DNA of 30,956 nt from a virus: the UHGV virus genome UHGV-0133295, one strand, 5' to 3'. A program made the position numbers. Within the stretch, counting starts at the first letter, position 1. Every line of letters starts with the position of its first letter. Shown here one piece after another: positions 18,001 to 21,000 of this stretch.

Positions 18001-21000
18001 ATGTATAGGTGATGTGTGTTTAATGCGTCTGTGAGCTTGTTTTGTGCCTTATTTTGCATTTTCATAATGCAGGAGAGAACACGGAAAGCCTTAAAATTAA
18101 TTATTGGGGTATTTAAGGCTATTTTTAGTGTATTTAAGGGTATTAAACTTGATTTAATTGATTAAAATATAAACAGATAATTATTTATCTTATTGATTTA
18201 TAAGGTTATTTTTAAATAAAGGTAAATAAAAAATAAATAGCCATAAATAGCTATAAATACATCTAAATACCTATAAATACATCTAAATACCTATATCCCT
18301 TCCCTTATGGCTAGATTGCGAGAGGTGCTTAACGCGATTTTCAGCGCCCCCCGATCTGGAAAATCCAGAATCCCCAAATATCAGCAAGGAATTTTCTTGC
18401 GTAATCAACATCGTTTTTACCTATTAAATCATTACACAGAAAGCCTTTCTGTAATGTCTCTCACTAAACTTTCACTAAACACGAGAATGATCGGTTTTAT
18501 GTCGGATCAGATGCTAGAAACAGCACCACGTCTCACAAGGGCTGTAAGCGATGAAACCAGTTTTTATGCGGGTGCAGGTCAAAATATAGGCCAAAATACA
18601 TTTAACATAATAAACGTAATATGCACTAAGGAACACATAGAACGCCTTGAATTGATGTATCAGGGGAAAAGTGATGGATTTTTTACGTAGGAGCACGAGA
18701 GGGCTTCTGTTGACTTTTGTATGCTATGAAATATAATTAAAGGTTTTTTTGTTTTTATCGTGTGATGTAGTGGATTACACAGGGGAATAGATTAAATGAT
18801 GTTCTGTTTATACAGGTTTATTTGTTAGATCAACAAGTTGGCATTTCTAAACAGATGTTTGAACGTTGCCAAATGTCTTGACAACACAAGAAAAGGGCTT
18901 GCTATGCCACGCATTACACGAAATAAGGCTGTAAAAACAAAATAAATTTTAAAATTTGCACAAACGAGAAAACTCGTTCAGAAACAAGCAGAACAATTTT
19001 TAGCCAACAATTTCTGATAGTGCGCTGTAAGCCGCATTACACAAGGATTTGCGAAAGTGATGTAAAAGTGAAGAAAGTAAGAATTGCTCTTTTAAGCTAC
19101 TTTTTCATTGAATTTTTAGTATGGAATTACACAGGGAATAGAGAGCATTATTCTATGATTTACACAGGGAATATAGGGGGATTATGGCACACACATAGAA
19201 AGGCATTACACAGAGTGAGTGCTATGTGACAAATGGATGTAACGAGAGGTTACATTCAGCTATCTGAAATGCTCTCTGTAAGAAAGTTGGTAGTAACGAT
19301 ATGTTACATCGACAGATGATTGGATGTAACGGTAGCTCACAGTGAACTAGGGGTAGGTCATAGTGAACTACCCCCACAGAATTCTGTTACCCCTATCAAG
19401 TCTGATACCCGATAAGTATAAATAACACCTAGGAAATGATTTCCGATCTATTTAGGAAGTAACCTAGGAAGTGGTTTCCTACCTACCTAGGAAATGAGTT
19501 CCACCAATACTATAATTAAATAATATAAATAATATTCTTTATACTATATAGCTCACTGTGAACTAGGGGGGTAGTTCACTATGAGCTAGGGGGTAGGTCA
19601 TAGTGAGCTAGGGGGTAGGTCACTGTGAACTACAATAAGACTATTAATAAAACTATATTAGATTATTAATTAGATCATAATAATAATATTCTTTATATCT
19701 ATATATATGATCTTTTGCCTTCCGGCGTTAGCTTCACTCTCTGGCAAGCAGCCTTACTCCGCTACCTTTCGGGCTTCGTGGCTGGCCCGTTCCGCTCACA
19801 CCGAAAGCAAAGCGTTACTTTCTTCGTGTAACTATCGTGGCGGTAACGCCCACGAAGAAATACTATTGCGCTGTGCGCAGAAGAGTAATCACCTAACCAA
19901 TCATACTGATTGCTTATGTGTTAACTCTCTCTAACTCTTAATTACCCTCCTACATTTAATAACTCTGTTATTCTCTGTAGTTGTGTAATTACTCGAAGAG
20001 AGAGCGGCTAAAGCTCAATTACACTCTGCTTTCCTCGTGTAATTTCACTAAGCCTCAATACAATTCCACTTCCTTGCATTCTGTAGTCGTGTAATTGTTT
20101 TCGGTGGAAAAGCCAGAGGCGACACCGAAAGAGAATTCTGATCTTATTAATCTTATCTATCTTAGTTATCTTACTTACTTATCTTACTTTATCTACTTTA
20201 TTATTAATAATAGCTTTATAAGCTCTGTGTAGCTCTTTGACGCAAGAAACAGCATTCAGGAAGGGAATCACCTTAGAAAAGTGTTCTTTGCGTCATAATG
20301 TGTTTTATGAAGGATTCAGAGGTGTTTCATAACAGGAGTGTATAGAGGATACTTTAATTAATTAAAAATAAGGGGTCTAAATGCTTCTCTAACAGCATTA
20401 AGCAGGGTAGGGAATGGAAACGCATTGCCTACATATAATAAGCTCACTACAGAGCGTTTTATAAAGTGACTCTCTATCTTATATCTGCCATTACCTTTTC
20501 ATATACCTAACAAATACAAAATAAGCCCCTTAAATAAGCCTCTGACGAGATAAATAGCCTCTACATAAGGGAATGTATTGCTTTTATCAAAACTTCGTTA
20601 GAACGCGTTTTAGAGCGTTTTAGACAATAAGGAGGAATAGCACTACACAGAAGAGCACGAATTGCTAAGAAAAAATGTAAGTGCATGAAAAAGATCAGAT
20701 TTTTTATGAAAAGGTATTGACAAATGTTTCTTTATATGTAATAATAGGTATTAGAGGGACAGAAAAACATTCTTCTCTAAATAATCAAAATCAATGCACT
20801 TTGAAGCCGTCAGGCTTGCAAGGTGTTTTTTCTTTTAACTGAATAAGGAGTTTTTTATGAAATGGTTTACACCGAAACACGTCGTAGAGGCATTTAAAAA
20901 AGGTGAGCTTACACGCCATCAAGTAGTAATGAATCGTAATATGGCAAGGAGTCGAGGTTATCCAGAGCGAGCTGCTTGCTTCAATGAAGCACTCAAGATT

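What the first reader, a model, noticed from the sequence alone, without database searches (positions are those of the whole stretch)
19705..19870. GC-rich island of nested inverted repeats inside AT-rich DNA
Ten-base arms TTTCTTCGTG and CACGAAGAAA enclose a smaller GGCG-gtaa-CGCC hairpin, with further complementary arms (CTTTCGG/CCGAAAG) upstream. The local GC content is clearly above the surroundings. This could be a structured small RNA, or a nick/transfer or single-strand origin site.
Basis: seen in the sequence. Interest (0 to 1): 0.4.

Follow-up and report, generated by a model that had tools for sequence, protein, structure and literature searches.

The report
Hairpin island beside satellite replication origin
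The GC-rich cluster of nested inverted repeats is real and conserved, and it sits directly against the AT-rich unwinding box and initiator-binding repeats of the replication origin of a 12-kb phage-satellite-like island of E. coli, so it is most likely a cis-acting part of that origin, not a free-standing small RNA gene or a transfer origin.

Summary
The described repeats exist at the stated place. The 68-nt core folds far better than shuffles (z -5.3 as DNA, -3.3 as RNA). GC is 0.55, against 0.11 in the 72 bp to its left.

The island lies in a 3.7-kb ORF-poor part of a ~12.3-kb integrative element (window ~17180-29400). This element sits at tRNA-Thr, next to a P22-like prophage.

Immediately left of the island are a 72-bp AT box and four 22-bp-spaced palindromic repeats. 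In 40 related loci the repeat family co-varies one-to-one with the N-terminal domain of the element's replication-initiator-like protein. This is the pattern reported for Vibrio PLE satellites, so the site is very probably the origin.

Three island types (A, B, C) exist in Escherichia. They share only CCGCTCAC, GTGYAA and TGCGCTGTGCGCA. The hairpin between these motifs is rebuilt from different sequence.

I found no Rfam match, no conserved sigma-70 promoter or terminator, no conserved ORF and no plasmid oriT similarity.

Best reading (0.45): an origin-flanking DNA element for loading, priming or bounding the unwound region. Main rival (0.30): a plus-strand structured leader RNA.

In passing, the element carries a 40-nt exact copy of the terminal-repeat junction of virulent phage phi92.

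The parts
18431..19211 (-). Left-arm array of 7-8 copies of the motif GTGTAAT (read ATTACAC on the plus strand), all in one orientation.
   Evidence: Ten of the 12 exact GTGTAAT matches in the 31-kb window fall in 18431-20095. Shuffles give 4.1 on average, and none of 100 reached 12. The orientation flips across the iterons in the window, L007 and L010.
19333..19374 (.). Two outlying copies of the 17-bp palindromic repeat TAGnTCACnnTGAnCTA (family M1).
   Evidence: the repeat finder family D1.
19427..19516 (.). Three ACCTAGGAAATGATTTCC repeats (family M3). In other elements this family is paired with a different initiator type (T2), so it is non-cognate here.
19549..19636 (.). Four tandem M1 repeats at 22-23 bp spacing. 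These are the putative iterons cognate to this element's initiator type, T1.
   Evidence: One search gives the spacing as 23, 22, 22. In one search every T1 locus with a scorable upstream region carries M1 repeats next to the AT box.
19637..19708 (.). AT-rich box (GC 0.11) with two GATC sites. It is the putative DNA-unwinding element. Its core, AATAATATTCTTTATA, is duplicated at 19513-19543.
   Evidence: (family D7).
19709..19799 (+). 5' block of the island. Positions 19741-19799 are identical between types A and B apart from two 1-nt insertions. The block ends in CCGCTCAC (19792-19799), which all three types keep.
19819..19860 (+). Nested hairpin: a 10-bp outer stem, a short inner hairpin AAC-tatc-GT(T), and the inner hairpin GGCG-gtaa-CGCC. 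It contains one GTGTAA motif (19826-19831).
   Evidence: Within type A, variation falls in loops and bulges, plus one T-G-compatible stem change.
19867..19879 (.). TGCGC-tgt-GCGCA, a near-palindromic 13-mer invariant in types A, B and C and duplicated in type C.
19890..20131 (.). Five further palindromes or hairpins that make up the rest of the right arm. Three of them carry GTGTAAT in the 3' arm (19983, 20037, 20089).
   Evidence: Blocks are shared with type B.
20717..20745 (+). Strong sigma-70-like promoter (TTGACA-17-AATAAT with TG) for the operon that contains the initiator gene. It is conserved in all three types.
21289..21981 (+). Initiator-like protein. It has an N-terminal winged-helix domain of type T1, a lineage-specific C-terminal domain, and the C-terminal residues EDFDIPF.
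   Evidence: PHROG replication-initiation families match. The alignment shows the two-domain layout.

Best explanation
The island is the first and most conserved part of the right-hand arm of an iteron-type replication origin. That origin belongs to a ~12.3-kb phage-satellite-like integrative element.

Proposed mechanism, with its basis:
1. Inferred from co-variation and family matches: the element's initiator binds the four 22-bp-spaced palindromic repeats (19549-19636).
2. Inferred: this opens the adjacent 72-bp, 11%-GC box (19637-19708).
3. Inferred only: the GC-rich island (19709-19880), which begins where the AT box ends, acts in cis as DNA. It may stop the spread of unwinding. When one strand is exposed, it may fold into the nested hairpin plus the TGCGC-tgt-GCGCA hairpin. 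Together with the short conserved words CCGCTCAC and GTGYAA, this fold would be a landing or priming site for helicase, primase or primosome proteins.

The initiator's C-terminal tail resembles the tip of bacterial SSB. This suggests a way to recruit such proteins, but that is a lead, not a test.
For: 1. Position. The island starts at the base where an 11%-GC, 72-bp box ends, and that box follows four tandem 22-23-bp-spaced repeats.

2. The repeats are initiator sites.
- In 40 loci where both could be scored, initiator N-domain types T1, T2, T3 and T4 pair with repeat families M1, M3, M4 and ATACGGGAAAAACCCGTAT. The only gap is one T3 locus (L032) where no repeat family was scored. This holds regardless of island type.
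- All four N-domain types match phage replication-initiation, lambda-O-like or DnaD-like PHROGs.
- No repeats lie inside the initiator gene itself.

3. The same modular pattern is experimentally established for PLE satellites. There the DNA-binding domain co-varies with semi-palindromic iterons in a non-coding region, while the C-terminal domain does not (PMC8263062). Lambda ori also has four iterons joined to an AT-rich stretch (PMC3349717).

4. The island is conserved. It is 95-100% identical in 438 of 5,426 complete E. coli genomes and is unannotated there.

5. Across the three sequence types only three short words are kept. A hairpin is nevertheless present at the same spot, built from different sequence. 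With DNA parameters, types A and B give the same fold as both MFE and centroid: an outer stem enclosing two small hairpins.

6. Types A and B stems are almost purely Watson-Crick and fold equally on both strands. The no-GU z-scores for type A are -7.6 and -7.8.

7. GTGYAAT motifs form arrays of opposite orientation left and right of the iterons in three elements of two lineages. This is an origin-centred symmetry.

8. No conserved sigma-70 promoter faces the island, whereas the initiator operon's promoter is obvious in all three types.
Against: - No experiment or replication data exist, so the origin assignment rests on co-variation and analogy.
- What the island itself does is inferred from position only. 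Nothing shows that any protein binds it.
- Type C hairpins contain several G-T/G-U pairs, on the plus strand only. These fit an RNA better than a DNA hairpin.
- One type A variant also has a plus-strand-compatible U-G change.
- Island type follows the element lineage, including the initiator's C-terminal domain, p62 and the downstream genes. This could be simple linkage.
- Known iteron origins do not need a 170-430-nt structured flank.
- No DnaA box is nearby.
- The hairpin comparison across types uses a hand-made, structure-guided alignment. A sequence-guided alignment puts the conserved GTGYAA in register and the stems out of register. This is therefore analogy of structure at one position, not strict covariation.
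Confidence: 0.45

Rival explanations
1. The island is the 5' part of a structured plus-strand RNA. This could be a leader or a processed regulatory RNA. It would start in or just after the AT box and run towards the initiator operon. It would control that operon by alternative pairing or premature termination, in the manner of the P4 CI or P1 C4 immunity RNAs. The initiator bound to the upstream repeats would then act as a transcription regulator.
For: - The element has no obvious protein repressor gene opposite the integrase.
- The island is co-oriented with all the other genes and lies upstream of the replication operon.
- Type C hairpins carry 3-4 G-U pairs each, on the plus strand only. 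The type C z-score is -3.3 on the plus strand and -0.8 on the minus strand when GU pairs are allowed.
- The L008 variant changes A19858 to G, giving U-G on the plus strand.
- The 3' arm CACGAAGAAA can also pair with TTTCCTCGTG at 20030-20039 in 9 of 10 positions. The type B arm can pair with a downstream GTGCAA site. This recalls the seqA/seqB/seqC arrangement of P4 (the P4 comparison is from my own knowledge).
- Loops GUAA and GAA(A) occur.
- A C/U-rich, G-poor tract at 20141-20230 could serve Rho.
Against: - There is no Rfam match at gathering score or at E<=10.
- No sigma-70-like promoter faces the island in type A, B or C, and no intrinsic terminator follows it.
- Types A and B stems have almost no G-U pairs and fold as well or better on the minus strand.
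- The RNA-parameter MFE of type B is a different fold from that of type A.
- GUAA is ATAA in 4 of 23 type A variants.
Confidence: 0.3
2. The inverted repeats are ordinary double-stranded operator sites for dimeric DNA-binding proteins. These could be proteins of the element (the 62-aa protein, the ribbon-helix-helix protein or the 92-aa HTH protein) or of the helper phage. No hairpin ever forms.
For: - The short words CCGCTCAC, GTGYAA(T) and the near-palindrome TGCGCTGTGCGCA are conserved as sequence.
- GTGTAAT recurs 10 times in 1.7 kb.
- The stems are pure Watson-Crick and strand-symmetric in types A and B.
- The element encodes several small DNA-binding-like proteins.
Against: - The stems of the main hairpin differ completely between types A, B and C, yet remain self-complementary. 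That fits a need for folding better than a need for a fixed binding sequence.
- The arms enclose further small hairpins instead of a plain spacer.
- No protein was found whose type tracks the hairpin sequence independently of the whole lineage.
Confidence: 0.13
3. It is an origin of transfer or another nick site. A relaxase or HUH nuclease supplied in trans would use it, with the hairpin as the recognition element and the conserved TGCGCTGTGCGCA region as the nick region.
For: - The layout is an inverted repeat, then 6-9 nt, then a conserved sequence. This resembles MOBQ-type oriT such as RSF1010 (from my own knowledge).
- The arms vary while the downstream word is invariant.
- A ribbon-helix-helix protein is encoded nearby.
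Against: - The element has no relaxase or HUH protein.
- The island has no similarity to any PLSDB plasmid even at E<=10.
- All 460 E. coli copies are chromosomal.
- The conserved word is itself a tight 5-bp hairpin with a 3-nt loop, which is a poor nick substrate.
- The adjacency to iterons is explained better by a theta-type origin.
Confidence: 0.05
4. It encodes the 75-aa ORF at 19707-19934, or it is a chance cluster of repeats.
For: An ATG-started ORF spans the island. PGAP calls a hypothetical protein there in a few genomes.
Against: - Among 22 close variants the ORF is 41-90 aa long, with repeated frame shifts.
- 1-nt indels are common in the island.
- The fold z-scores and the conservation in 438 genomes exclude chance.
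Confidence: 0.02

Closest known systems
Replicon of Vibrio cholerae PLE satellites (RepA plus iterons in a non-coding region)
   Same: - The satellite has a large non-coding region that holds semi-palindromic iterons.
- The initiator's N-terminal DNA-binding domain is swapped together with the iterons, while the C-terminal domain follows the lineage (PMC8263062; here).
- The likely helper is a virulent phage.
   Different: - The initiator family differs: here a winged-helix domain like lambda O or DnaD, not RepA_N.
- The host is a different genus.
- In the passages of the PLE paper I read, no GC-rich nested-hairpin flank is described.
- Replication of this element is untested.
Bacteriophage lambda origin (ori-lambda)
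   Same: - Four tandem initiator-binding repeats, each with internal symmetry, are joined to a short AT-rich stretch where unwinding occurs (PMC3349717).
- From my own knowledge, a palindrome follows the AT-rich region in lambda.
- The initiator matches lambda-O-like PHROGs.
   Different: - Lambda's origin lies inside the O gene. Here the repeats lie 1.6 kb upstream of the initiator gene and none lie inside it.
- The structured flank here is 170-430 nt, not about 28 bp.
- No P-like helicase loader is encoded.
P4 CI RNA and P1/P7 C4 RNA (satellite and phage immunity RNAs cut from an operon leader)
   Same: - A structured element lies in the leader position upstream of replication genes in a satellite that lacks an obvious repressor.
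- An arm sequence is repeated upstream and downstream of the hairpin.
   Different: - No match to any Rfam model.
- No promoter was found.
- Transcription and processing are untested.
- The pairing with the second target has a C-A mismatch.
Single-strand initiation signals and primosome assembly sites (phiX174-type n' sites, plasmid ssi and sso)
   Same: - A stable stem-loop cluster next to an origin could fold once the duplex is opened.
- The structure is kept while the sequence varies.
- The initiator's EDFDIPF tail resembles the SSB tip DDDIPF, which binds PriA and DnaG (PMC5872125, PMC3632105, PMC5531588).
   Different: - These signals share no sequence model against which to test membership.
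- The active strand is unknown.
- Dependence on PriA or DnaG is untested.
- Type C stems carry G-T pairs that weaken a DNA hairpin.
MOBQ-type oriT (for example RSF1010)
   Same: An inverted repeat is followed after a few bases by a conserved word that contains GTGCGC (the comparison is from my own knowledge).
   Different: There is no relaxase, no plasmid homologue, and all copies are chromosomal.

Membership tests
Iteron-type (theta) replication origin | Tandem direct copies of an initiator-binding repeat at about one or two helical turns | tested here: met
   Four copies at 23, 22 and 22 bp spacing (19549-19636). Relatives have 3-8 copies.
Iteron-type (theta) replication origin | Repeat sequence specific to the cognate initiator's DNA-binding domain | tested here: met
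   One-to-one co-variation of four N-domain types with four repeat families in 40 loci, the one gap being a T3 locus (L032) with no family scored. All four types match replication-initiator PHROGs.
Iteron-type (theta) replication origin | Adjacent AT-rich unwinding element | tested here: met
   19637-19708 has GC 0.11 and lies between the repeats and the island.
Iteron-type (theta) replication origin | Supports initiator-dependent replication | not testable with these tools
   Needs a mini-replicon or marker-frequency experiment.
Iteron-type (theta) replication origin | Host DnaA boxes (present in many plasmid origins but not all) | tested here: not met
   No TTATCCACA with up to 1 mismatch within 1 kb of the island. 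This feature is not a strict requirement; lambda-type origins lack it.
Any described RNA family (Rfam 15, including the phage C4/CI antisense RNAs) | Match to a covariance model | tested here: not met
   No hit at gathering score in the whole window. Only noise at E<=10 in 18800-20500.
Free-standing bacterial sRNA gene | Own promoter and intrinsic terminator bounding a short transcript | tested here: not met
   No plus-strand sigma-70-like site upstream and no terminator downstream in type A, B or C. The scan is a simple consensus scan, and helper-phage promoters would be missed.
Structured RNA (generic) | Base pairs kept through compensatory changes, with G-U tolerated on one strand only | tested here: inconclusive
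   A hairpin is kept at the same place with other sequence, but only in a structure-guided hand alignment. G-U pairs occur on the plus strand in type C. Types A and B are symmetric Watson-Crick.
Conjugative origin of transfer | Cognate relaxase or similarity to a known oriT | tested here: not met
   No relaxase among the element's proteins. No plasmid similarity.
Primosome assembly site / single-strand initiation signal | Stable hairpins in single-stranded DNA next to an origin | tested here: met
   The DNA-parameter fold of 19815-19882 has z -5.25 (plus) and -5.53 (minus), with no shuffle of 200 as good.
Primosome assembly site / single-strand initiation signal | PriA- or primase-dependent priming on the folded strand | not testable with these tools
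   Needs an M13-based ssi cloning assay or in vitro priming.
Protein-coding gene | Reading frame kept among relatives | tested here: not met
   ORF length is 41-90 aa with frame shifts among 22 variants.

The most novel reading that the evidence does not exclude
The island and the oppositely oriented GTGYAAT arrays on either side of the iterons form a previously undescribed origin architecture. It would belong to an undescribed family of Escherichia satellites that parasitise phi92-like virulent myoviruses. In this reading, the initiator binds swappable iterons through its N-domain. Through its lineage-specific C-domain and SSB-like EDFDIPF tail, it brings host or helper priming and helicase proteins onto the folded hairpin island. 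The island would then be the loading site that lets a 12-kb element replicate during a lytic infection.
Probability: 0.15. Interest if true: 0.75.

Novelty: new variant of a known kind. Interest (0 to 1): 0.5.

Why it matters
If the reading is right, the island marks the working end of a satellite replication origin in E. coli. The element carrying it is present in about 8% of complete E. coli genomes but is unannotated there.

The element shows the same swap of iterons and DNA-binding domain that was tied to an arms race between PLE satellites and phage ICP1. It also carries an exact copy of the terminal-repeat junction of virulent phi92-like phages, some of which are under study for therapy.

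A defined origin with its flanking loading element would give a compact handle for three things:
- testing how satellites of lytic coliphages replicate;
- building mini-replicons;
- predicting which phages they interfere with.

For genome annotation, it shows that a 3.7-kb 'empty' region is dense with cis-acting sites.

Tried and rejected
- **Rfam.** A scan of the whole window at gathering score and of 18800-20500 at E<=10 gave nothing. ARAGORN found no tRNA or tmRNA.
- **Phage and plasmid similarity.** BLAST of the island region gave no phage hit. The only plasmid-collection hits to the 1-kb region came from an E. coli chromosome filed as a plasmid. The 106-nt query at E<=10 also gave four short chance matches (E 0.3-3) in unrelated plasmids.
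- **More distant homologues for covariation.**
  - The protein-guided search of one genome per species found only Escherichia sp. E1V33.
  - IMG/VR returned only close relatives.
  - The metagenome pattern scan returned 9 true hits, all of types A or C, plus GC-rich chance hits.
  - Only three sequence types are therefore available, and strict covariation statistics were not possible.
- **Invertible switch.** Relatives carry a small serine or tyrosine recombinase gene nearby, so I tested this idea. No inverted arrangement appeared among ten loci.
- **Lambda-type cos site.** No GGGCGGCGACCT with up to 2 mismatches.
- **Initiator-gene repeats and DnaA boxes.** No iterons inside the initiator gene and no DnaA boxes nearby.
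- **Strand choice from folding energy.** The result was contradictory: type A folds better on the minus strand, type C on the plus strand, and type B about equally.
- **Island motifs in phi92.** None in the first 50 kb. The remaining 98 kb was not checked.
- **Sakai thrW prophages Sp1 and Sp2.** These are different elements.
- **Literature.** Searches for a described satellite of this kind found nothing relevant.
- **Solved structures.** A PDB sequence search with the initiator gave no hit.
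Full report
**The observation.**
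The stated repeats are present.
- TTTCTTCGTG is at 19819-19828 and CACGAAGAAA at 19851-19860.
- GGCG-gtaa-CGCC is at 19839-19850.
- CTTTCGG is at 19766-19772 and CCGAAAG at 19801-19807.

GC content is 0.55 for 19709-19880. It is 0.11 in the 72 bp to the left, and 0.39 and then 0.21 to the right.

The 68-nt core 19815-19882 folds much better than dinucleotide shuffles. The z-score is -5.25 with DNA parameters and -3.32 with RNA parameters, and none of 200 shuffles folded as well. The 201-nt island as a whole is only modestly better, at z -1.9 and -2.4. It is, however, the start of a 436-nt stretch (19705-20140) made of about ten local hairpins, with z -5.1 on the plus strand and -7.5 on the minus strand.

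**The surroundings.**
Window 1 to about 17180 is a P22/HK620-like prophage that ends at a 3' fragment of tRNA-Thr. From about 17180 to 29400 lies a separate ~12.3-kb element. It occurs alone at tRNA-Thr in E. coli MIN6, and at tRNA-Gly or tRNA-Leu in other strains.

The element encodes:
- a tyrosine integrase;
- a major-capsid-E-like protein;
- a tape-measure-like protein and a Dit-like protein;
- several small proteins;
- a 230-aa protein with a winged-helix N-domain that matches phage replication-initiation, lambda-O-like and DnaD-like PHROGs.

Its left 3.7 kb (17180-20856) has almost no annotated genes in any genome. The island lies in this region. It is present at 95-100% identity in 438 of 5,426 complete E. 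coli genomes, always on the chromosome and essentially never annotated.

**What lies next to the island.**
Directly to its left is a 72-bp box of 11% GC (19637-19708). Left of that are four copies, at 22-23 bp spacing, of a 17-bp palindrome, TAGnTCACnnTGAnCTA. Further left are other repeat families.

The initiator-like proteins of related elements are mosaic, with four unrelated N-terminal domains joined to lineage-specific C-terminal domains. In 40 loci where both could be scored, the N-domain type predicts the repeat family next to the AT box:
- T1 pairs with M1;
- T2 pairs with ACCTAGGAAATGATTTCC (M3);
- T3 pairs with ACAGAATTCTGT (M4);
- T4 pairs with ATACGGGAAAAACCCGTAT.

The only gap was one T3 locus (L032) where no repeat family was scored. 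The pairing was independent of island type. All four N-domain types match replication-initiator PHROGs. No repeats lie inside the initiator gene and no DnaA boxes are nearby.

This is the pattern shown experimentally for the PLE satellites of Vibrio cholerae. There the DNA-binding domain of RepA and the semi-palindromic iterons in a non-coding region form a swappable module, while the C-terminal domain is conserved (PMC8263062). It also matches the iterons-plus-AT-rich layout of ori-lambda (PMC3349717). I therefore take 19549-19708 to be the core of the element's replication origin. This is an inference from co-variation and analogy, not a demonstration.

**Comparative anatomy of the island.**
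Only three sequence types were found, all in Escherichia:
- type A (this window);
- type B (L009);
- type C (L010, L073 and many viral contigs).

Wider searches added no further types.

Types A and B share a 60-nt block, window 19741-19799, that is identical apart from two 1-nt insertions. They also share blocks further right. Type C has replaced all of this. All three types keep CCGCTCAC, then about 20-30 nt, then GTGYAA, then a hairpin, then 6-9 nt, then TGCGCTGTGCGCA.

The hairpin is built from different sequence in each type.
- Type A: a 10-bp stem encloses AAC-tatc-GT(T) and GGCG-gtaa-CGCC.
- Type B: GTGCAA/TTGCAC encloses TGGC-ttt-GCCA and CCGT-gaa-ACGG.
- Type C: GTGCAA/TTGCGT encloses GCC-tac-GGC.

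With DNA parameters, types A and B give the same fold as both MFE and centroid: an outer stem with two small hairpins. A structure-guided hand alignment shows 11 positions where both sides differ between A and B while pairing is kept. A sequence-guided alignment instead puts GTGYAA in register and the stems out of register. This is therefore retention of a hairpin at one place, not formal covariation.

Within type A (23 variants), changes in 19819-19860 fall in the bulge and loop, apart from one A-to-G change that gives T-G on the plus strand.

**Is it a gene?**
The 75-aa ORF over the island is frame-shifted again and again among close variants, with lengths of 41-90 aa. It is not coding.

No Rfam family matches. 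A simple sigma-70 and terminator scan finds no plus-strand promoter facing the island and no terminator behind it in type A, B or C. The promoter of the downstream operon (TTGACA-17-AATAAT or TATAGT) is found in all three. Promoters used by a helper phage would be missed by this scan.

**Which strand, and DNA or RNA?**
The evidence is mixed.
- In types A and B the stems are almost purely Watson-Crick, with 0-2 G-U pairs per hairpin. They fold equally on both strands. With G-U pairs forbidden, type A gives z -7.6 and -7.8. This is what DNA-level palindromes look like.
- In type C the hairpins carry 3-4 G-U pairs each, on the plus strand only. The z-score is -3.3 (plus) against -0.8 (minus) when G-U pairs are allowed. 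This is what a plus-strand RNA looks like, or a plus-strand DNA hairpin that tolerates G-T.

**An origin-centred symmetry.**
The 7-mer GTGTAAT occurs 12 times in the window, and 10 of these lie in 18431-20095. Shuffles give 4.1 on average, and none of 100 reached 12. The copies left of the iterons are all on the minus strand. Those to the right are on the plus strand, apart from one copy that forms a palindrome. The first right-hand copy, a GTGTAAC variant, lies inside the island hairpin. The same flip of orientation across the iterons is seen in L007 (type A) and L010 (type C).

**Linkage.**
Island type follows the element lineage. Type A goes with one initiator C-domain and about 95%-identical downstream genes. 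Type C goes with another C-domain and a capsid about 73% identical. The iterons and the N-domain are exchanged across both lineages. The island thus belongs to the backbone, not to the specificity module.

**Interpretation.**
- The best-supported reading (0.45) is that the island is the GC-rich, hairpin-forming flank of an iteron origin. It would act in cis as DNA, as a boundary of the unwound region and/or a loading or priming site. Its exact role is inferred from position alone.
- The main rival (0.30) is a plus-strand leader RNA that regulates the replication operon in the manner of P4 CI or P1 C4. The type C wobble pairs and the repeated arm sequence support it. It lacks a promoter, a terminator and any model match.
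- Plain duplex operator sites (0.13), a transfer or nick site (0.05) and a small protein or chance (0.02) are less likely, for the reasons given under each.

**Side observations that bear on the context.**
- Window 18316-18355 is 100% identical over 40 nt to phage phi92 nt 318-357. That stretch straddles the annotated end (nt 343) of phi92's 343-bp left terminal repeat. The match recurs in about 46 phi92-like phages and is kept in 31 related loci of both lineages.
- The element's capsid protein is 22-24% identical over its full length to head proteins of ~140-155-kb myoviruses. These include the Klebsiella phages that also match the 18306-18383 DNA segment.
- The initiator ends in EDFDIPF (DDFDIPF or DSIPF in relatives). 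This resembles the SSB C-terminal tip DDDIPF, which binds primase, PriA and other replication proteins.

Together these points suggest an undescribed satellite of phi92-like virulent phages. That idea was not tested further.

Noticed in passing
window 18316-18355 (minus strand relative to phi92): A 40-nt stretch is 100% identical to Escherichia phage phi92 nt 318-357, which straddles the annotated right end (nt 343) of its 343-bp left direct terminal repeat. A 46-nt match at 95.7% occurs in about 46 phi92-like virulent myoviruses, and a match at about 80% in ~150-kb Klebsiella and Citrobacter phages. The 40-mer is kept with 0-1 mismatch in 31 related loci. It may be a mimic of the helper's packaging or terminal-repeat junction.
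   Followed up: partly
window 21958-21978 (last 7 codons of the initiator gene 21289-21981): The initiator-like protein ends in EDFDIPF. Relatives end in DDFDIPF or DSIPF, and type B does not have this ending. The tail resembles the conserved SSB C-terminal tip DDDIPF, which recruits DnaG, PriA, chi and other proteins.
   Followed up: partly
window ~17180-29400: This is a ~12.3-kb integrative element lying in tandem with a P22-like prophage at tRNA-Thr. It encodes an integrase, an initiator, a capsid-E-like protein, a tape-measure-like protein and a Dit-like protein, but no portal or terminase. The capsid protein is only 22-24% identical to head proteins of ~140-155-kb myoviruses. The family seems confined to Escherichia and Shigella, and I found no description of it.
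   Followed up: partly
window 19427-19516, and 19234-19349: The element keeps arrays of repeats that are cognate to other initiator types (ACCTAGGAAATGATTTCC x3, the T2 type). It also has a further palindrome family, ATGTAAC-N5-GTTACAT x3, with no assigned partner. The AT box core is duplicated (19513-19543 and 19667-19697), as if whole repeat-plus-AT-box modules had been stacked.
   Followed up: partly
window 18383-18776, compared with L001, L006, L008, L010 and L009: Where the window has about 390 bp of unrelated sequence, several relatives carry a small recombinase gene on the minus strand. It is a serine recombinase of about 180 aa in four loci and a 186-aa tyrosine recombinase in L009. 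No inversion of the neighbouring region was seen among ten loci.
   Followed up: partly
window 19951-20079: One type A variant lacks this 129-bp stretch, which covers three of the downstream palindromes, but keeps the island. In type C, some variants have lost one of the two TGCGCTGTGCGC-ending units, apparently by recombination between the two copies.
   Followed up: no
window 18224-18296: An AT-rich run of short tandem units (ATAAATAGCC, ATAAATAGCT, ATAAATACATCTAAATACCT x2) lies just left of the phi92-like 40-mer.
   Followed up: no
window 20141-20230: A pyrimidine-rich, G-poor tract on the plus strand with repeated TTATCT and CTTAC units (GC 0.21). An A/G-rich stretch at 19065-19082 is partly complementary to it.
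   Followed up: no
window 21065-21235, and L-series loci: The small ribbon-helix-helix-like protein occurs as two alleles, about 100% and about 45% identical to the window's copy. The alleles assort independently of island type and of initiator type. Their DNA target is unknown.
   Followed up: no
PLSDB record NZ_CP134663.1 (L073): A 4.9-Mb E. coli chromosome is filed in the plasmid collection as 'plasmid unnamed1'. It accounts for the only plasmid hit to the 1-kb region and the only E. coli hit to the short island query.
   Followed up: yes
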